Shown piece by piece: positions 12,739-63,818 of a DNA stretch of 64,000 bases. This stretch comes from Paecilomyces variotii (lineage: Eukaryota): assembly GCA_004022145.1 (NCBI GenBank), contig RCNU01000001.1, one strand, 5' to 3'. The stretch's first letter is position 1, and each line of letters starts with the position of its first letter. Under the pieces are notes generated by a model, which did not search any database, had not been told where the DNA came from, and was given only the letters and a program-made list of their open reading frames with translations. The position numbers were made by a program, and so were the translations under genes.

Positions 12739-12795
12739 CTAATCGGCCCTTTGTCAGGACCGCGCTGCGCGCGGTCCTGACAAAGGGCCGATTAG
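12739..12795. repeat. Perfect inverted repeat, 27-bp arms, 3-nt loop
   Basis: CTAATCGGCCCTTTGTCAGGACCGCGC-TGC-GCGCGGTCCTGACAAAGGGCCGATTAG; the arms are exact reverse complements. Confidence 0.97.
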
Positions 12796-54167: not shown

Positions 54168-55202
54168 ATGTCGAAACGAACCCTCCACGCCTTTTTCAAA
54201 CCATCATCATCACCACAAGCAAAGAAATCACGCACAGACACAACGTCTACACCGACTACAGAAGAAAGAACACCAACATCCCAAAAGCAAGAAGACGACC
54301 CAGCTGTTCCACCCAGCAGCATCCATCCCACATATCCATTCCCCATCGCAGCTCTCGACAGCTCTCTATCCACCTCATTATCACTCGACACCCCATCAAA
54401 CCCACCGAAACACATCAACAACCAGCCCCATCTCGACCTGCTCTACTTCCAACCCTACATTCCGCACAGGACTGCGCAACAGCTTTTCCTCTTCTTAAGA
54501 CGAAATCTACCCTTCTACCGTGTGAAATATACTATTCGTCGCGGATCCACTGAAACAATCATCAACACGCCTCGCTTCACAACTGTATTCGGCGTTGATG
54601 AGACGTCTTACTTCGCTTTGCCAGCGGATGTATCAAATACAAATACAAACACCACCGAGCGAATTCTAATAGATAGAAAAACAAAAACGCCCATCTCCAG
54701 GAACAAATATAAATGTACACCGCGACCAATACCCTCGTGTCTCGAAACGGTGCGCAAACAAATCGAATCCGTCTGCGGCGCAACGTTTAATTTCTGTCTG
54801 ATTAATTATTACGCTTCGGGCGAGGATAGTATTTCGTATCATTCGGATGATGAGCGGTTCTTGGGACCAGAGCCCACTATTGCATCGTTGTCGTTGGGTG
54901 CGAGGAGGGATTTTCTCATGAGGCATAAGCCTTTTCAGTCTGGTGGTGAGAGGGGTACGTTGAAGCTTCCGCTCGGGTCGGGAGATATGGTGGTTATGAG
55001 AGGTGAGACGCAGGCGAATTGGCTACATTCTATACCGAAGCGGAAAGCGGGAGGGGAGGCGGACCGAGGGAGGATCAACATTACGTTTAGAAAGGCGGTC
55101 GTGCCGGGTGGGACGGAGAATTATTATCGGTATAATGTGGGGGATGGGGAGGTGTATAGATGGGATGAAGAAAGGGGGGAGATGGTGAAATGGAAGGGGT
55201 AG
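54168..55202 (+). CDS. AlkB-family Fe(II)/2-oxoglutarate dioxygenase (ALKBH2/3-like DNA/RNA repair)
   Basis: TPRFTTVFG, FNFCLINYYASGEDSISYHSDDE (HxD), IASLSLGARRDF, WLHSIPKRK (distal His), RINITFRK (RxxxxxR). Confidence 0.92.
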   Translation: MSKRTLHAFFKPSSSPQAKKSRTDTTSTPTTEERTPTSQKQEDDPAVPPSSIHPTYPFPIAALDSSLSTSLSLDTPSNPPKHINNQPHLDLLYFQPYIPHRTAQQLFLFLRRNLPFYRVKYTIRRGSTETIINTPRFTTVFGVDETSYFALPADVSNTNTNTTERILIDRKTKTPISRNKYKCTPRPIPSCLETVRKQIESVCGATFNFCLINYYASGEDSISYHSDDERFLGPEPTIASLSLGARRDFLMRHKPFQSGGERGTLKLPLGSGDMVVMRGETQANWLHSIPKRKAGGEADRGRINITFRKAVVPGGTENYYRYNVGDGEVYRWDEERGEMVKWKG

Positions 55203-55362
55203 TTGTTTGGGATAGAGTTGGAACCATGTATATTTTTTGGATATGGATTTATTATCAGACTAGTTCTAATTGCATATACATACAATATAAAGGGAAAGAC
55301 TGGTGTATATTTGTGCGTGCTATACATACATATATATCCGCTCACAGCATCCAAGCTATTAC

Positions 55363-56603
55363 TTACCATTCCAATCCCCTCAACTTCAACGGAAGATGAA
55401 GCATCCGATGTCCTGATTCCGTCGGTTTGGGAAGTCTTCCTGCTCGTATATTCATCTGTAGTGATTGATGCAATAGTCTCGGCTCTGCCAGCTTCGCATC
55501 ACGTTCCTTACGGAAAGTTACGAATTCATCCTCCGTCACTTTGTCATTCAGATGCGTGTTCTTCTCCCTATGCGCCTTGACGCTTATCCAGGGAACAGGA
55601 CCACGGCCTTCCGGTGGGTAGTCATGACCCGGCCAGATTTTGACATGGTCCGGCAAGCTGAGCAGCTTGCGACCTGAGTCATAGAGATCGTTGGCGCTTC
55701 CACCGGGGAAGTCGCAACGTGCAGTGCCAATATCTACATGGAAGAGAGAGTCGCCGCAAAATACATTATCTAAAACATGTCAGCTGAGTCGTGTGACAGA
55801 ATAGTTATTTAATCAAGGTCCTTACCTCCAATTTTATACCCAAGATGATCAGGAGTATGACCAGGAAGGTGCATAGCCGTAGCCTGTATCTCACCAATAC
55901 TAAACGTCTCATCATCATCGAAAAGCTTCGAGAAAACATTCTCATATTCCTCTCTCGGAACGCTATATCTCTGACTGAACAGCTTCTGCACTTGACCAAT
56001 CCGCTTTCCAATACTGATAGGTGGCCGATGACCTTGTTCCGCAGCTAGTCGTTTCTGGAGATACGTTGCTGCGGTGATATGATCCGCATGGACGTGCGTT
56101 TCGAGGATTCTGTCAACCTTGTAGCTCTTCTCTTTGACTAACGAGAGCAATTGATCAGCTGAGCTGGTTGTTATGACTTGCGTGGCGGGATCGTAGTCCA
56201 GAACAGGGTCGATAATGACGGCGGTCAAAGTGGACGGGTCAGCCACCACGTATTGCCATGTACCTGTTTTGCTTTCGAAGACGTCGTGGATAATTGGCTC
56301 GTTGGTGGCGGTGCGTTGCGTACTATATGCAGCTCGAACTCGAGGTGTATGTTGTGGCAATTTGGACCTGACTGTCTGCATGCAGGGCTGTGAGAAGGTA
56401 CGCCGCCCAGAGACTAATAGACGCTTGCAAGATTCTTGATAAACCCCTCCGCTGCTAGAAGAACAGCTCCTTGGAAGGGTTTGGGCAGTGTATGTCGCAT
56501 TATGCGCAATGCGTTGATGGAAAGGAAGGGTGGCGGAGGTCCGTCCCCCAAGGAGACTAAGCGGTTGCCAGTTATTGATAAGATGAGGTCGAAGAGATTT
56601 CAT
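55363..56603 (-). CDS. Persulfide (sulfur) dioxygenase, metallo-beta-lactamase fold, 2 exons, with presequence-like N-terminus
   Basis: IIDPVLDYDP, LETHVHADH, PGHTPDH; intron 55770-55825; then GDNVFCGDSLF, GTARCDFPGG, IWPGHDYPP, RKERDAKLAEPRLLHQSLQMNIRAGRLP. Confidence 0.9.
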
Positions 56604-56713
56604 GATTTCATGATTTTACCAATTCACTAGACTTGCATGCAGCGATTCTTGAAGGTTAACAAAGAATGAAGAGAGTCGTTTTATACTTGTTGAAATCGAT
56701 CTTAAACCCCAGT

Positions 56714-56796
56714 CGGGTCGCCGAACTATCTCGGGTCGACTCATACATAGTTCGGCGACCCGGGCAGCTAGCTCGCCGACCAAACTGCGCTCGCCG
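56714..56796. promoter_or_regulatory. 16-bp perfect inverted repeat plus clustered TCGCCG motifs in the PDO/SQR divergent promoter
   Basis: CGGGTCGCCGAACTAT (56714-29), 17-nt spacer, ATAGTTCGGCGACCCG (56747-62); further TCGCCG at 56773 and 56791. A regulatory role is inferred. Confidence 0.55.
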
Positions 56797-57383
56797 TTTG
56801 ACGTTTCTCCATGGTTTATGATATACGCCAGGAGCTGATTGGCCGGCTAGGGGAGAGTGTCGTTATGTCAACTTGACGGCGTTCAACAGTTGACCATTCC
56901 CCGAGAACTGAATATTTTGAACCGTACGAATGTCGGGGAAAGTCTTGAATAATAGATGGACGATCAGCGAATCTTTCCTTGAACAGTAAGGCGAAATTCA
57001 AGTAGAATAGATCCAATTGCAAAAACACAAGAAGATTACACCGGAGTCGGCGGTTAAAAACTCAACTAGGAAGCTATCCATGAAAATTTCGCCACAGATA
57101 ACCCCAGTTTTACCCGAACCCCTCTGGTAATCACTAATCTTACAGTAAGCTTATGGTCCGTGCTTTTTTAGATTTCAGATGAACAAAATGAGAGCAAATT
57201 TCACACATCGTGAAACTCCCCCAGACATTTAAGATTGCACCAGTCTTAGCCTGTCCATTCATTAAGGTGTCGGCTCCTTTTTTTTTTTCTGATACATTTA
57301 TTTATCCTTCCCTTTATTTAGCGGGTCTCTTGTCATTTTTGCCCTTGTTACTTTGATCTCATTATTGTAAACCGCACTATCAT

Positions 57384-58736
57384 ATGTTCAAGATGTTCGC
57401 CAACCGTGCAACATCAGCGGCTGGTGCTACTGCCCGAACGGCTCTAAAAGCCCGCAGCTTTGCAACTGCTTCGCCTGTGGGCTCTACCACTCGCAGCCAC
57501 AAGGTTGTCGTTGTGGGTGGCGGCTCTGCTGGCCTGACTATCAGTCACCAGCTCCTTCGCTCTGGCAAGTTTGCCAAAGATGACATTGCTATCGTCGACC
57601 CCTCCAAATGGCATAACTACCAGCCCGGCTGGACGCTGGTCGGAGGTGGCCTCAAGACCAAGGAGGAGCTGCGAAGACCCCTTGACAGCCTGGTTGACCC
57701 CAAGCTTAAGTTCTATAACGATAGCGTGAGCCAGTTTACGCCCGAAGAAAACATTGTCAAGCTAGGCAACGGCGAGCAGGTCAGCTACGAGCAGCTTGTC
57801 GTGGCCCCCGGAATCACCCTCAACATTGATAGCATCAAGGGACTCCCTGAGGCTCTTGCTAACCCGGACGCCCTTGTTGCTTCCATCTATAGCTATGACA
57901 CCTGCGACAGGGTCTTCGAAAATGTTAAGAAATTCCAAAAGGGTGACGCCCTGTTCACCCAACCTACTGGTGTGATCAAGTGTGCTGGTGCTCCTCAGAA
58001 GATCATGTGGCTCGCGCTGGACCACTGGAAGCGAGCAGGCCTTTACAATCCTAGCAACCCTTCCAGTGGATCGATTCAGATCAGCTTTGCCACGGGTCTA
58101 CCTGGCATGTTTGGTGTGCCCAAGTACAGCAAGACACTCGAGGAGCTACGAAAGGAGAGGGGTGTTGAAGGTCTGTTCCAGCACGATCTCGTTGCCATTG
58201 AGGGCAACACCGCCGTTTTTGCTCGCCCGGACGGACAGGAGCAGGTCAAGAAGCACTTTGACTTCCTGCATGTCACGCCCAAGATGGGACCCCATGCGTT
58301 TGTCAAGAACAGTCCCCTGGCGGATGCTGCTGGTTTCGTTGCAGTGGACCAGGCCACCACTCGCCACACGAAGTACTCGAACGTCTGGTCTGCTGGCGAT
58401 GCCTCCAGCCTTCCTACTTCCAAGACGGCAGCCGCCATCACTTCTGAGGCGCCGGTTCTCGTTCGCAATCTGCTGCAAACCATGGAGGGCAAGGAGCTTG
58501 ACGCAGCGTACGATGGTTACACCTCATGCCCGCTTCTTACCGAGTACGGCAAGGTCCTCCTTGCTGAGTTCAAGTACGGCGGAGAGCCCAAGGAGACCTT
58601 TGGCAAGATGTTCGGAATTGACCAGGCCGTTCCTCGTCGCGCCTTCTACCATCTGAAGAAGGACTTCTTCCCGTGGGTGTACTATCAGGCTATGGTTAAG
58701 GGTACCTGGGGTGGTCCCAAGGGCTGGCTCAACTAA
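57384..58736 (+). CDS. sqr: Mitochondrial sulfide:quinone oxidoreductase (Hmt2/SQOR-like), intronless
   Basis: VVVVGGGSAG FAD-binding motif, HNYQPGWTLVGGG, catalytic Cys in IKCAGAPQK and YDGYTSCPL, LPTSKTAAA, LAEFKYG; Arg/Ala/Thr-rich presequence-like N-terminus. Confidence 0.96.
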   Translation: MFKMFANRATSAAGATARTALKARSFATASPVGSTTRSHKVVVVGGGSAGLTISHQLLRSGKFAKDDIAIVDPSKWHNYQPGWTLVGGGLKTKEELRRPLDSLVDPKLKFYNDSVSQFTPEENIVKLGNGEQVSYEQLVVAPGITLNIDSIKGLPEALANPDALVASIYSYDTCDRVFENVKKFQKGDALFTQPTGVIKCAGAPQKIMWLALDHWKRAGLYNPSNPSSGSIQISFATGLPGMFGVPKYSKTLEELRKERGVEGLFQHDLVAIEGNTAVFARPDGQEQVKKHFDFLHVTPKMGPHAFVKNSPLADAAGFVAVDQATTRHTKYSNVWSAGDASSLPTSKTAAAITSEAPVLVRNLLQTMEGKELDAAYDGYTSCPLLTEYGKVLLAEFKYGGEPKETFGKMFGIDQAVPRRAFYHLKKDFFPWVYYQAMVKGTWGGPKGWLN

Positions 58737-59901
58737 AACAAAATTTCAACCGCTTGTATTTTAGAGGCAATAAAATAATAGAATCATAAGGGCTCAGAAA
58801 GACAACAACGACGACAACAACTAACTCGATCAGTAGCTAGTATTGAATACCATCAATACAATAGACGATGGCCTTCCAAAAACGACAGAAGCCTGAATTG
58901 ATGGAGAAAGATCCACTTTTCTGGGAGTACAGTACATCAGAAAACGCATGCAAACCACCCACTGCAACAAGCACGCAACTCAACTAGGCCAAACAGGTCT
59001 AGTCCAACGTCTCTGAATCTCCCGGCACTTAATTCAACCCATAAGTAACTAGTAGGTTTAAATGTCATTACACTCTTAGCAAACAAACCACACGTAGATA
59101 TACACTCTCGTCCAAGTATCTACATCCCGCTCCCTCCAGTTTCACGTCCCTTATCCCCTTGTAAGATCCATTCCTGTCCTGTATACAGATCATACGATCC
59201 TATCGTCCGAATACCTTTCTCGTCCGAAAAAGTACCTATTGAGCCCGAAATCAGTTCGGCCGAGAAAACATACGTAATTCCTCTTGGCATCGAGTATGCG
59301 AAGATCGGAAGACAATATATGCATTTTCAAAGGATGTCTTTGGTTGTCTTATAATCTATCCATCTTGATCAGATAAGTTAAAGATCGGTAGCACTAAGCC
59401 CTGCAATAGGCTATGGACCAAGCAGGAGAGAGAGATATTCGGTCGAGAACAGCGAATGGGGCCCACTAAATAGTGGATTGGATTGGATTGGTTTGGTTTG
59501 GTACCGCTAAACTTACATGGGTAATTTTGCGGTTCTTTTAAGTAGATACTGCAGGCATGCTTTCCCATGTCTGTCTTCCTGATATTGCCGAATGATAGGA
59601 CTGCTCTAATATATGCCACAGAATTACGCAAGGATAATATCGCAGGTTTTTCTTGCGACAGCGCTTCAAATCGAGATTTCAAGGAAGGCATTGTTCTAGC
59701 CGAACAATGCGTATGGTACTCGTCGCTTTCGTTGCCTCCATCTTTGCACGAAACGATCGAACAACTTGCAGGATGGTCCGGTAAGTTTCAATTCCTGCAT
59801 CGGATATCACAATCATCAAGCTTGAATCTACAGTGCTCGCGTGCGGTATGGTCATTGGAAATCATAAGTCTCAAAAGAAAGACAAAGTGGAGGATGTCCG
59901 G

Positions 59902-60597
59902 TTATTCTGAAGGTTCGCGATCAGCCAAAAGTCTGACTTGGTCCTTCAGAAATTCTAGAGTTACACTCGTCTCTTTCCCTCGCTCCAACAAGTATTTTGA
60001 ATGGCCCGCGGAGAACTCCACGCACCCAATTTGAGGCGCAATTGCAATGCGCCAAGCTAAGAGATACCCAGCGACATTCCACGCCACTTCCTCCGAAACA
60101 GTGGAGAAGACATTGGCTGAATAATCTTGAGTGTCCTCGCATCTTTTCTTGAAGTTGTCCGTATACTGTTGCACCCATGCGTCGTAGAGGTCAAGGACCG
60201 AGGAGGGAAATGAGGAGAGAACTTCTTCCGACTCTACGTGAGAGTCTTCGTCATGTGTAATGTCATCCAGACTCCGCCATATAAAGTCCGTACCATAGTC
60301 TGCAAAGATACGGTAATGTCGGACAGATTTTATCTGTGCGGGCGATTCAAGGGATGACGGTGCCTCAGATGTGGTCATCTCAACTAATATTGATTCTGAT
60401 TCCGCCACTGCATTGGCGATTTTCATGGTGAAGTCAAATTGCGTTTCGATCACAGCAGAGTTCCGATCCGACTCCGCCGCAGCCTCCTCGGAAAGTGTGC
60501 GCCATGCATCACCCAGGTTCCTAATCTTCTTGATGTATTTCTGAGATTGAGATTGACTGCAGAAGACAGCCAAAGGCTTGAGGATACCGGGGGCCAT
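59902..60597 (-). CDS. Hypothetical protein (start may be ATG at 60378)
   Basis: 231-aa ORF whose C-terminal part looks globular (HYRIFADYGTDFIWR, LYDAWVQQY, VAWNVAGYLLAWRIA). Confidence 0.65.
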   Translation of the reverse strand: MAPGILKPLAVFCSQSQSQKYIKKIRNLGDAWRTLSEEAAAESDRNSAVIETQFDFTMKIANAVAESESILVEMTTSEAPSSLESPAQIKSVRHYRIFADYGTDFIWRSLDDITHDEDSHVESEEVLSSFPSSVLDLYDAWVQQYTDNFKKRCEDTQDYSANVFSTVSEEVAWNVAGYLLAWRIAIAPQIGCVEFSAGHSKYLLERGKETSVTLEFLKDQVRLLADREPSE

Positions 60598-61461
60598 TTT
60601 TGGGAATGGAGGGCCAAGGGTGAACTGAAATGCGACACAGTATAAATTTCACTGGAAAAAGGTCGGGCAGATGCGGTGTTACTTTAAAAGCATTCCTTGG
60701 GCGCTAGTTAACCACGCCTGTTATCTACTATTCGATAGGCAGTAGCGACTGAGGGGACCAATTCATGGCCCGTCCCTGTACTTGACCACGCGCAAAATTT
60801 CTAAAACAAGAAAAAAGAAGTGTATCTAACACTTGCCCTGCATAAAACACATATTACTTCAAGTCCTCATCTGAGGAGTTTCAAAGGTCACTTGCCTATG
60901 CTTCCAACTCTGTATCCGAAGAACACTGCTTCGATCTGAAAGCAAGGCTGTATGATATAGCCAGATGTCTTCTGCTTCTGCATTTTGGTTGCATCCCGGG
61001 GTAGCATGGCTATGTCGAGAGAGTCGCTATAGCCCAACAAGGCTTGTTCTAATTAACGCCAAATTGTTCACAATCCTTATCGATGAACTCGGACAAACCA
61101 CGGTTCAATTATCAGATGTCTTTGGATGTCAGAATATCAGGCTACTAGATGAACTTGACCTAGAGACGTTTCCTCGTTGTTCGCAAGGGGGACCCCTATA
61201 TCATCTTCTGAGTTACACTGGTAGAGTAGAGATGTCATGATATCTCAAAGCAGACTTTGATCGGACAGTGAAGGAGCTAGTAAGACGAGACAGAGGAAAT
61301 AATTGTCAACAGTTAGTCCTATATTTGAAATCGCATGAACGTCGATTTAATAAGATAGTCTCTATACGCCCTAATCCTAGTAACGAGGGCATTTTCCAAT
61401 CCTTCTAAAAACGAGAGTTGATTGTTACCGCAGATTCGCCGCTACAACCATATCGCATCCC

Positions 61462-62354
61462 TCAATTACTCGATGTAAGCTCGCCCGTAGGACTGCTGAG
61501 GAACCACGCAATAAGGAAATCCAGAAGCCCGGAATTCTTATGTCGACAGTCATAGAGCTTGCTCTTCTGTATGACCAACGTGGAGCTATCCATATAAGCC
61601 TGGAGTATTCGCACGTGCTGTACGCCCATCATCGAAAACAGCAATACCTATAAAGGTTTGAGGATCAGCATTGGATAAAGTCCCTGTCATAATAATAACT
61701 CACTGGATAGTTTGAGTAATGGGCAACAGATTTAGTTGCTAATCGTCCTCTGATTAATCTAATCAGAGCTAGAAGTTCCCCACGAAATAATGTTCCATCA
61801 TTACCCTCATGATCGGAAATCATAGTTGCTTTGACGTGGGGGTATTTCGAATTGTGGCAGTAAACTGATTCGACATACCACTGCGACACTTTATACTCCC
61901 AAAGTACTTTATATTTGGAGACACTGGTGACATTAACAGGGAGAATAAACATTCGTAAACAAGAGACCACGTACTCTAGACTATTCCATCCCAGCTCGTC
62001 GAGTCCACAGTCGATCACACAGCAGGATAGATAACGTTCAAGTGAGCGTGCCCTTTCCCATGATTTCTCCCCATACCTCTCCTCTCTTGTTGCATCGTAT
62101 TCAGGGAACTCCAGGAACTCCTCCGCAAGGTCTTGTTCATCAGGCGCAGATAAAACGTTAGAAGTAGTTGGTATGAAGAAACACAACTTAAGCTCTATAT
62201 CTTCGCTAGTTCGAGCAAAGGAGGCAGGGCGCACAATGACATTCATCTCTTGAAGATCATCGGCGCCGAACTGAAGATATTCAGCACTTGAAATACGATC
62301 GTCCAAGAGCCGAAGAGTACGACGAAATGCTTCGTTGCCATTAGAGCTCGCCAT
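61462..62354 (-). CDS. Hypothetical protein, 2 exons
   Basis: ORF 61665-62354 joins 61462-61647 through GT-AG intron 61648-61703 (PHVKATM...LFRGELLALIRLIRGRL...YP|VLLFSMMG...RILQAYMD). Confidence 0.7.
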
Positions 62355-62646
62355 CTTCCGTTTCGTGAAATACCAAAGTGAGCAAAATGCAAGAACGTTT
62401 TCATGTACGATTGGAGAAGTACTGCGTTGTATAAACGATAATCATATTACCGTGTCTCGTCTGTTTGTTGTCAGTTTCTGCGGACAGCGGAAAGCCCCGC
62501 GACTACTTAAGTACTTACTAGAAAGGCTGAGTCGGAACCCCCGCATCCACCTCTCTTAGCATATTGCTCACAGCTGATCATCTACATCTTTGGCATTCCG
62601 AACTAAATCCTTCTCAGACTACCATTACACGGAAGACATTGATAAA

Positions 62647-63818
62647 ATGGGCGACAAAGAGACAATTGTCGTGATTGGGTAAACTACGTACTGTCCAGTT
62701 CATCCTAGATCACCTCGAAACGCTAACTGGCGAATAGTGCGGGGGTCGTCGGTCTATCCACAGCTCTTCAAATTCAACAACATCTGACTGCATCTCAATC
62801 CATCTTGATAGTGGCACGGGAATTCCCCAATACCACTTCTATCAACTACACCTCTCCTTGGGCTGGTGCTCATTATCGTCCATCCCCTGGTACTTCCGCA
62901 CAAGCCATCCGTGAGGCAGACCAATGCCGGCGCACGTATGATAGATTCAAGCGCATAGCTGCAGAGGAGCCTGCTTCGAGTATTAAATTTCTCGAGGGTA
63001 TTGAACACCTGGAGGCTCCCCCTCCTGAGTATCTGGATGCTACCTCAAGAAAAGTTGCTTATGGACATCTGGAGAGATACCGTGAGCTGTCGAGAGATGA
63101 GTTGCCTGAAGGAGTCAAATGGGGAACGCGTTATTGGAGTTGGACTCTCAATTCACCGGTTTATTGCGCGCATCTGCTCCGAAAATTTATTTTGAAGGGT
63201 GGCCAGACGAAAGAATATACAGTCACGAATCTCCTGGAAGCGTTTGAACTGGCAAGCAATGTGAAGACCGTGGTCAATTGCTCTGGCACGGGATTCAACG
63301 ATCCGAAGTCCTTTATAATTCGAGGTGCGTCGAGCTCCTCGGTACGATCTCAGGTTGTTGTTCATTCTGACAGTATCTTAGGACAAACGTGTCTCGTCCG
63401 TAACCCTTGCTCTGTGACCTTGACCAGACAGCTAGCGGACGGCTCCTGGTCCTTTTGCATTCCTCGACCACTAGACGGGGGCACGGTCATCGGTGGTACT
63501 AAGCAGCCGCATAACTGGGATCCGATTCCGTCGCCGGAGACGAGAGCTCAGCTGCTGGAAAATGCATCGAAGTGGTTCCTATTTACCCCAGAAAGTGGAG
63601 GGAAGTTCGATGTCATCCGCGACATCGTGGGCCGCCGACCAGCCCGAGAAGGAGGAATGAGAATCGAAGTCGAGAAAGTAGGAAAAGACAGCAATAAGAC
63701 CATTGTCCATGCATACGGAGCAGGTGGACGTGGATTCGAGCTCTCGTGGGGTGTTGCTGAAGATGTTACGCTGTTAATGCTGGAGAACAGGCTATTGCAT
63801 GCAAGGGCATCGCTATAG
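62647..63818 (+). CDS. dao: D-amino-acid oxidase family flavoprotein, 3 exons
   Basis: MGDKETIVVIG|AGVVGL (intron 62679-62737), YTSPWAGAHYRP, VVNCSGTG, RG|QT (in-frame intron 63325-63381), GGTKQ, VGRRPAREGG, HAYGAGGRGFELSWG. Confidence 0.92.

What the first reader, a model, noticed from the sequence alone, without database searches (positions are those of the whole stretch)
55363..58736. Divergent persulfide dioxygenase and sulfide:quinone oxidoreductase pair: an operon-like fungal H2S-oxidation module
Seen: PDO (minus, ATG 56603) and SQR (plus, ATG 57384) are head-to-head with about 780 bp between starts. Both have Arg/Ser/Ala-rich, acid-poor N-termini resembling mitochondrial presequences. 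Established: SQR oxidises H2S to persulfide and PDO oxidises glutathione persulfide to sulfite. These are consecutive steps, and sqr-pdo clustering is typical of heterotrophic bacteria. Inference: the PDO motifs (DPVLDYD, ARCDFPGG, LQMNIRAGRLP) look closer to bacterial type II/Blh-like PDOs than to human ETHE1, and the SQR is intronless. This suggests a co-regulated mini-cluster for sulfide detoxification or sulfur oxidation, possibly involving lateral transfer. I cannot tell from the sequence whether this linkage has been described in fungi.
Basis: partly seen in the sequence, partly recalled or inferred. Interest (0 to 1): 0.75.

Follow-up and report, generated by a model that had tools for sequence, protein, structure and literature searches.

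The report
Conserved fungal sulfide-oxidation gene pair
Many moulds keep two genes side by side whose enzymes most likely burn toxic hydrogen sulfide step by step in the mitochondrion, an arrangement that resembles bacterial sulfide operons but appears to have been assembled from old fungal genes rather than imported.

Summary
Observation confirmed. The window is Paecilomyces variotii. An intronless eukaryote-type SQR (57384-58736, +) and a two-exon metallo-beta-lactamase-fold gene (56603-55363, -; intron spliced in 4 of 4 runs laid) sit head to head, 780 bp apart. The second protein is closest to solved type II persulfide dioxygenases by sequence and fold, keeps the Fe triad and glutathione-pocket residues, and is far from ETHE1 and glyoxalase II. 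Both carry basic, acid-poor N-terminal extensions, as do their orthologues. Adjacency recurs in 22 named species of six genera in three Pezizomycotina classes, with some apparent exceptions. A. nidulans AN1825/AN1826 fall together in a napA mutant. Lateral transfer of the pair is not supported: fungal PDOs from four phyla form one clade apart from the sampled proteobacterial ones, and fungal SQRs also fall outside them. Best reading: a mitochondrial H2S to persulfide to sulfite module, linked in fungi independently of bacterial operons, to limit toxic sulfane sulfur. Activity, location and sulfide induction are untested. Ten literature searches found no description of the pair or of fungal type II PDO. 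New variant of a known pathway; interest 0.58.

The parts
57384..58736 (+). Sulfide:quinone oxidoreductase, eukaryotic type II (SQOR/Hmt2-like), 450 aa, intronless; Cys200 and Cys382; alternative start 57393
   Evidence: PF07992; best PDB hit human SQOR E 1.5e-93 over residues 39-446; C200 and C382 invariant in 42 of 42 aligned fungal SQRs; covered by RNA-run contigs
57384..57497 (+). Presequence-like N-terminus of SQR (about 38 aa)
   Evidence: 0 acidic, 7 basic in the first 45 aa; 90 of 90 measurable homologues have at most 1 acidic residue there. Localisation not tested
55826..56603 (-). PDO exon 1: 100-aa presequence-like extension, HxHxDH motif (H170, D174), H249
   Evidence: PF00753; NF040641 Blh dioxygenase part; PDB 9G8T/4YSK/4EFZ E 1e-31 to 1e-25; residue numbers
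55770..55825 (-). 56-nt intron (GTAAGG ... CTGAC ... TAG)
   Evidence: Predicted; skipped in contigs of 4 of 4 runs
55363..55769 (-). PDO exon 2: D266 (third Fe ligand), R277, H308, Y310, R346, R349 (glutathione pocket)
   Evidence: PDB 4EFZ/4YSK/9G8T E 9e-34 to 7e-28; mapping to PpPDO2 pocket residues
56604..57383 (.). Shared 780-bp intergenic region, candidate bidirectional promoter
   Evidence: no contig cover at 56814-57215 in 3 of 4 runs while both genes are covered (weak hint only)
56714..56762 (.). Perfect 16-bp inverted repeat with 17-nt spacer, holding two of six C[CG]CCGA words in the intergenic region; candidate regulator site
   Evidence: six words against 0.67 expected (pattern chosen after seeing the data); function untested

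Best explanation
A two-gene mitochondrial sulfide-oxidation module conserved in many Pezizomycotina. SQR oxidises H2S, passes electrons to ubiquinone and the sulfur to glutathione (directly or via polysulfide), giving GSSH; a type II-like mononuclear-iron persulfide dioxygenase oxidises GSSH with O2 to sulfite, which reacts with sulfane sulfur to give thiosulfate. The genes share a short divergent promoter region so that the enzyme that makes toxic sulfane sulfur is expressed with the one that removes it. Both genes are old fungal genes; the linkage arose within fungi, in parallel with bacterial sqr-pdo operons. Shown here: gene structures, transcription and splicing, family assignment, catalytic residues, conserved adjacency, tree positions. 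Inferred: activity, mitochondrial location, direction of flux, selective reason for linkage.
For: Family and residues: SQR; PDO; 14 of 17 usable PpPDO2 pocket residues listed in PMC9163753 are identical; Fe triad invariant in 42 of 42. Presequences: 54 of 62 PDO homologues with a long extension have over three times more basic than acidic residues; 90 of 90 SQRs have at most one acidic. The four window neighbours tested hit none of 160 loci. Co-regulation hint: AN1825 and AN1826 both down in napA-deleted conidia, logFC 2.3 and 2.1. Trees. Pathway and toxicity of sulfane sulfur: passages of PMC9163753, PMC9774590; toxic-intermediate gene pairs: passages of PMC6785257.
Against: No activity, localisation or sulfide-induction data. 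Three pocket residues differ from PpPDO2 (Y177 to I273, M259 to E355, V261 to R357). Linkage is not universal: no PDO in 4.7 and 6.0 kb upstream of SQR in L004 and L011 (downstream not seen); Neonectria punicea and Xylogone hits lie on different contigs (paralogues not ruled out); A. nomiae accessions are 3 apart and A. oryzae 3.042 accessions 88 apart. The L002 PDO looks broken by frameshifts. Consecutive accessions give adjacency, not orientation. AN1826 was not checked by sequence, and it is one of many genes down in that mutant; no canonical Yap1-type site is in the P. variotii intergenic region. No rhodanese hit among the 9 ORFs scanned.
Confidence: 0.78

Rival explanations
1. Same enzymes, different main job: the pair tunes mitochondrial sulfane-sulfur levels (for cysteine synthesis, protein persulfidation, redox balance in spores) rather than detoxifying sulfide. 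Not exclusive of the best reading.
For: S. pombe Sqr is reported as the main producer of reactive sulfur species and needed for cysteine synthesis and mitochondrial health (PMC8577491, title, listing and passages); the A. nidulans pair depends on the redox regulator NapA in conidia.
Against: S. pombe is stated to lack Pdo; adding a PDO drains sulfane sulfur to sulfite, which fits removal. Bacterial pairs are described as detoxifying.
Confidence: 0.3
2. The linkage is inherited inertia of a shared bidirectional promoter, not selection on pathway coupling.
For: All 3 linked metagenome loci and the window are divergent with 0.4-0.8 kb between genes; some fungi seem to have the genes apart.
Against: Inertia does not explain why two consecutive pathway enzymes became neighbours; in T. 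atroroseus they stay adjacent on one strand; flanking genes differ among loci.
Confidence: 0.15
3. The pair was transferred together from a proteobacterial sqr-pdo operon into Pezizomycotina.
For: PDO is type II-like, a type reported only from Proteobacteria in a prokaryote survey (PMC5702731 passages); 17 of 80 nearest GTDB PDO loci have an sqr within 5 kb; SQR is intronless.
Against: Pezizomycotina PDOs nest among basidiomycete, mucoralean and chytrid PDOs, not among the 29 proteobacterial rows; bacterial identity is only 41-47%; fungal SQRs form a 99-support clade away from the operon SQRs and match human SQOR over the full length.
Confidence: 0.04
4. The metallo-beta-lactamase-fold protein is a hydrolase (glyoxalase II or beta-lactamase, as some annotations and the NapA paper suggest) unrelated to sulfur.
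For: Public names such as 'Glyoxylase B2' and 'beta-lactamase-like'; AN1826 called a putative beta-lactamase; full HxHxDH motif kept.
Against: PDB E 4.5e-69 to 1.9e-62 for type II PDO-like chains against 1e-8 or weaker for GloB/glyoxalase II; Foldseek 1e-29 against 1e-11; PpPDO2 keeps the same HxHxDH; conserved adjacency to SQR.
Confidence: 0.04

Closest known systems
Animal mitochondrial sulfide-oxidation pathway (SQOR + ETHE1 + rhodanese)
   Same: Orthologous-type SQR with both catalytic cysteines; PDO partner; presequence-like N-termini
   Different: The PDO is type II-like (ETHE1 match E 3e-14 against 1e-62 for PpPDO2); the two genes are neighbours; no rhodanese gene seen beside them
Proteobacterial sqr-pdo2 operons (Cupriavidus pinatubonensis, Pseudomonas putida SdoA/PpPDO2, P. 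aeruginosa PA2915; Blh)
   Same: Type II SQR beside a type II PDO; same Fe triad and most glutathione-pocket residues; same fold (TM 0.78-0.80)
   Different: Divergent monocistronic genes, an intron, N-terminal presequences, no DUF442/rhodanese domain; separate clades in both trees
Schizosaccharomyces pombe Hmt2/Sqr
   Same: Fungal mitochondrial SQR of the same kind (from PMC8577491 passages; not aligned here)
   Different: S. pombe is stated to have no Pdo
Fungal metabolic gene pairs flanking a toxic intermediate (GAL1-GAL10; McGary et al. 2013, seen only as cited in PMC6785257)
   Same: Consecutive enzymes, chromosomal neighbours, divergent with under 1 kb between starts, toxic intermediate
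   Different: Inorganic sulfur pathway in the mitochondrion; whether this pair was in that survey's tables could not be checked

Membership tests
Eukaryotic type II SQR (SQOR/Hmt2) | FAD-binding flavoprotein disulfide reductase fold with full-length similarity to SQOR | tested here: met
   PF07992; human SQOR E 1.5e-93 over 39-446
Eukaryotic type II SQR (SQOR/Hmt2) | Two active-site cysteines (KCAG and TSCP motifs; their catalytic role in human SQOR is recalled) | tested here: met
   C200 and C382 align with the human cysteines; invariant in 42 of 42
Eukaryotic type II SQR (SQOR/Hmt2) | Mitochondrial location | tested here: inconclusive
   Composition fits a presequence; no targeting predictor or microscopy available
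Eukaryotic type II SQR (SQOR/Hmt2) | Sulfide-dependent quinone reduction | not testable with these tools
   Needs an assay
Type II persulfide dioxygenase (SdoA/PpPDO2) | 2-His-1-Asp mononuclear iron site | tested here: met
   H170, H249, D266 match PpPDO2 H74, H149, D170; invariant in 42 of 42
Type II persulfide dioxygenase (SdoA/PpPDO2) | Glutathione-persulfide pocket (D78, R181, H212, Y214, R250, R253 and others) | tested here: met
   14 of 17 usable residues listed in PMC9163753 identical (one listed residue repeats a number and was dropped); Y177, M259, V261 differ
Type II persulfide dioxygenase (SdoA/PpPDO2) | Groups with type II rather than type I, type III or glyoxalase II | tested here: met
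   Top sequence and fold matches are PA2915 PDO, SdoA and 4EFZ; the trees used six unnamed distant metagenome PDO-like rows as outgroup, not characterised type I/III references
Type II persulfide dioxygenase (SdoA/PpPDO2) | Reported range limited to Proteobacteria (prokaryote survey) | tested here: not met
   A fungal clade with named members in four phyla; so 'fungal type II-like PDO' rather than the bacterial family as published
Type II persulfide dioxygenase (SdoA/PpPDO2) | GSSH dioxygenase activity | not testable with these tools
   Needs an assay
Blh (sulfurtransferase-dioxygenase fusion) | N-terminal DUF442 sulfurtransferase domain | tested here: not met
   Only profile positions 133-421 of NF040641 matched, scores far under the cut-off
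Glyoxalase II | GloB family score and closest fold | tested here: not met
   TIGR03413 39 and 25 bits against cut-off 200.8; Foldseek ranks 24 and lower
Bacterial sqr-pdo operon | Co-directional, co-transcribed genes, usually with a rhodanese domain or gene | tested here: not met
   Divergent genes on separate RNA-run contigs; no rhodanese hit in the 9 ORFs scanned
Horizontally transferred bacterial cluster | Both genes nested in one bacterial donor clade | tested here: not met
Fungal metabolic gene pair | Adjacency conserved across distant taxa while flanking genes change | tested here: met
   exceptions listed in the Against line
Fungal metabolic gene pair | Co-regulation | tested here: inconclusive
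   One table in PMC5371717; contig depths cannot rank expression

The most novel reading that the evidence does not exclude
Fungi have kept, since before the chytrid/Mucoromycota/Dikarya split, their own type II persulfide dioxygenase lineage in the role ETHE1 plays in animals, and Pezizomycotina have independently rebuilt the bacterial sqr-pdo gene pair from it. The pair would be the missing genetic basis of H2S and elemental-sulfur oxidation by moulds, feeding sulfide electrons into respiration and switched by a dedicated regulator at the C[CG]CCGA inverted repeat.
Probability: 0.3. Interest if true: 0.8.

Novelty: new variant of a known kind. Interest (0 to 1): 0.58.

Why it matters
It names a concrete, knock-out-ready candidate for how filamentous fungi dispose of H2S and sulfane sulfur; that moulds oxidise reduced sulfur in soil without a known gene set is recalled, not checked here. 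It re-annotates a widespread fungal gene now called beta-lactamase-like or glyoxalase as a probable persulfide dioxygenase, extends type II PDOs beyond Proteobacteria, and offers a case of convergent clustering of the same two enzymes in bacteria and fungi, on which the toxic-intermediate model of gene linkage can be tested in A. nidulans (AN1825/AN1826).

Tried and rejected
No whole genome is held for this window, so a second SQR, an ETHE1-type PDO or a rhodanese elsewhere in P. variotii stayed unchecked. Fungus-to-fungus transfer of SQR, suggested by Diplodia and Lipomyces ranking high: the Pezizomycotina SQR tree is mostly unresolved and AU tests did not reject Pezizomycotina without Lipomyces (p 0.57) or Eurotiales (p 0.23) as clades (three long metagenome rows left out). 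Known-type promoter words (Yap1-, CYS3/MetR-like; patterns recalled): none in the four linked intergenic regions. C[CG]CCGA: 6 vs 0.67 expected in the window and 5 vs 0.41 in L003, but 2 vs 1.33 in L008, 3 vs 1.5 in L002 and 4 vs 0.65 in control L010; chosen after the fact, so only a lead. The 16-bp inverted repeat is not seen in the other three linked loci. L010 dropped from the linkage count because its SQR is split and inverted, probably a misassembly; L001, L005, L006, L007, L009 and L039 dropped for too little upstream DNA. Trichoderma clusters shared no assembly. ESM Atlas added nothing beyond Ascomycota and Pseudomonadota clusters and did not place the rhodanese fusion. Lack of contig cover in the intergenic region is a weak hint only. 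Literature: 9 answered searches of 10 used plus one syntax error (answered; one search failed) gave no paper on a fungal sqr-pdo pair or fungal type II PDO; most hits were seen as listings only. Passages read: PMC5371717 (its 11 text supplements had no hit), PMC3589345, PMC9774590, PMC11507549, PMC9163753, PMC5610705 (fungal lactamase review: no 'dioxygenase', 'persulfide' or 'sulfide'), PMC6785257, PMC5702731, PMC8577491, PMC2657799, PMC5584763. Sattler et al. 2015 was not available. Three look-ups in earlier scan findings returned nothing. No complex prediction was run, since binding is not claimed.
Full report
What is there. The SQR-like ORF runs 57384-58736 on the plus strand without an intron (450 aa), and the second gene runs 56603-55363 on the minus strand with one 56-nt intron, giving 394 aa; the start codons are 780 bp apart. 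The SQR is 99-100% identical to Paecilomyces variotii proteins, which names the organism. Contigs of 4 of 4 public runs laid (one recorded as RNA, three guessed) skip exactly 55770-55825; PDO contigs pass the ATG at 56603 in 3 of 4; the two genes lie on separate contigs in all four.

The SQR. Best solved match is human mitochondrial SQOR (E 1.5e-93, residues 39-446), far above bacterial SQRs in the PDB (1e-15). Cys200 and Cys382 align with the human cysteines and are invariant in 42 of 42 fungal homologues aligned. The 120 best homologues listed are 69-100% identical and, where named, come from Eurotiomycetes, Dothideomycetes, Sordariomycetes, Leotiomycetes and Lipomyces. It is an ordinary fungal SQR.

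The partner. P0121, the stored P. variotii protein lacking the first 74 residues, matches 9G8T, 4YSK and 4EFZ at E 4.5e-69 to 1.9e-62, human ETHE1 at 3e-14 and GloB/glyoxalase II at 1e-8 or weaker. An AlphaFold model (pLDDT 80.5) finds P. aeruginosa PA2915 persulfide dioxygenase and P. putida SdoA first (E 1e-29, TM 0.78-0.80), type I PDOs next (1e-17) and glyoxalase II at 1e-11. Of the PpPDO2 pocket residues listed in PMC9163753 (passage), 14 of 17 usable ones are identical, including the Fe triad H170/H249/D266 and R277, Y310, R346, R349; Y177, M259 and V261 differ. It has no DUF442 domain, so it is not Blh. It works like, and by sequence groups with, type II PDOs; activity is untested.

Targeting. 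The PDO has a 100-residue extension with 14 basic and 1 acidic residues; 54 of 62 homologues with an extension of 50 or more residues show the same bias, many ending in an R-A-x-Y-S-T-like stretch. All 90 measurable SQR N-termini have at most one acidic residue. This fits mitochondrial presequences; no predictor was available.

Linkage. In one search, 5 of 5 SQR/PDO pairs had consecutive accessions (A. clavatus, A. alliaceus, Paecilomyces No. In one search, five cluster pairs were picked by taxonomy only: four gave consecutive accessions (Aspergillus sections Fumigati and Flavi, A. ochraceoroseus/rambellii, Colletotrichum acutatum complex) and Trichoderma was untestable. With A. hancockii and a single PDO+SQR gene model in Talaromyces atroroseus, adjacency is seen in 22 named species of six genera in three classes; the 14 Aspergillus species are not independent. 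Among 12 clearly fungal metagenome SQR loci (L001-L011, L039), five had usable upstream DNA: L002, L003 and L008 carry a divergent PDO, L004 and L011 do not. Against: Neonectria punicea and Xylogone hits lie on different contigs, A. nomiae accessions are 3 apart, several DDBJ Aspergillus assemblies 2-4 apart, and A. oryzae 3.042 88 apart. Four window neighbours (AlkB-like, DAO-like, two unknown) hit none of the 160 loci, and L008 has other neighbours, so the pair, not the block, is conserved. In T. atroroseus the order is same-strand PDO then SQR, and the SQR part still begins with its own presequence-like stretch, so it is probably two tandem genes merged by annotation: linkage kept across a change of orientation.

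Co-regulation. In PMC5371717 (table rows and one passage) A. nidulans AN1825 (sulfide:quinone oxidoreductase) and AN1826 (metallo-beta-lactamase domain) are both lower in napA-deleted conidia, logFC 2.3 and 2.1; the authors read AN1826 as a possible beta-lactamase and did not link the two. The locus numbers were a recalled lead, and AN1826 was not verified by sequence. The P. variotii intergenic region has a perfect 16-bp inverted repeat at 56714-56762 and six C[CG]CCGA words against 0.67 expected, but this pattern was chosen afterwards and is enriched in only one of three other linked loci and in one control.

Origin. The 80 nearest GTDB PDO loci are 41-47% identical and, where the title names them, Pseudomonadota; 17 of 80 have an sqr within the 5 kb fetched. 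More distant relatives found by full HMMER search include named proteins of Phlyctochytrium, Vanrija, Postia and Rhodosporidiobolus (4 of 10 looked up had an organism name), and longer forms from Mycena, Sporodiniella (with rhodanese) and a second Phlyctochytrium. In an 85-row IQ-TREE mixture-model tree, 14 named fungal PDOs and 29 GTDB rows fall on opposite sides of a 99/99 branch, with Dikarya 99/99 and Pezizomycotina 100/99 nested inside (bootstrap not fully settled; 36 unnamed rows, 18 of them inside the fungal side). Adding five more named rows keeps this (96). Fungal SQRs form a 99-support clade outside the 17 GTDB SQRs (midpoint root, no named animal or plant rows). So neither gene looks recently imported, and the pair was not transferred as an operon. 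Because type II PDOs were reported only from Proteobacteria in a prokaryote survey (PMC5702731 passages), the fungal lineage may descend from the mitochondrial ancestor or from a very early transfer; this was not resolved.

Mechanism. From established chemistry (passages of PMC9774590, PMC9163753, PMC11507549): SQR oxidises H2S to sulfane sulfur and reduces quinone; sulfane sulfur forms GSSH; PDO turns GSSH and O2 into GSH and sulfite; sulfite and sulfane sulfur give thiosulfate. Excess sulfane sulfur is toxic. [quoted passage not shown] The most likely reading (0.78) is a mitochondrial sulfide-oxidation module whose linkage keeps producer and remover of sulfane sulfur in step. A role in sulfane-sulfur homeostasis, as reported for S. 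pombe Sqr, which has no Pdo, is a compatible rival.

Novelty. The pathway is known from animal mitochondria and bacteria. Ten answered searches found no description of the fungal pair or of fungal type II PDOs, and a review of fungal lactamases does not mention them. The library lacks most subscription journals, and genome-wide cluster surveys may list the pair in supplements I could not see, so I put the chance that the linkage is already in print at about one in four (judgement). Verdict: real, conserved, a new variant of a known kind; interest 0.58.

Noticed in passing
window 12739-12795: Perfect 27-bp inverted repeat with a 3-nt loop, the longest found in the window scan; context not examined.
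   Followed up: no
window 59364-59516: A 153-nt minus-strand intron-like skip (CT..AC on plus) in one run, with a matching loose end in a second, in DNA downstream of SQR that has no clear ORF: an unannotated spliced transcript or long UTR.
   Followed up: no
window 54168-55202: AlkB-like 2OG-Fe(II) dioxygenase (PF13532) tail to tail with PDO; a poly(A)-like loose end for the PDO transcript lies at 55218 in one contig.
   Followed up: partly
window 62727-63818; 59902-60648; 61665-62441: A DAO-family FAD oxidoreductase and two ORFs without Pfam hit downstream of SQR; none is conserved beside the pair in fetched loci.
   Followed up: partly
P0517 (Talaromyces atroroseus UA08_04245); P0525 (unnamed, bacterial clade): Single predicted proteins holding PDO then SQR; the fungal one may be a merged model, the other looks like a bacterial PDO-SQR fusion.
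   Followed up: partly
P0524 (Sporodiniella), P0376, P0374, P0384, P0411, P0427: Rhodanese-like domain fused in front of the type II-like PDO in early-branching members of the fungal-side clade; Dikarya members lack it.
   Followed up: partly
P0518, P0520 (Colletotrichum); P0515 (Phlyctochytrium planicorne): A second PDO paralogue modelled together with a zinc-binding dehydrogenase (cluster of 56 members), and a tandem PDO-PDO protein in a chytrid.
   Followed up: no
L002:1009-1863: The PDO beside this fungal SQR appears broken by frameshifts (assembly error or decay).
   Followed up: no
P0037, P0038 (Lipomyces): Yeast SQRs 76% identical to the P. variotii protein and placed among Pezizomycotina; transfer not shown by AU test.
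   Followed up: yes
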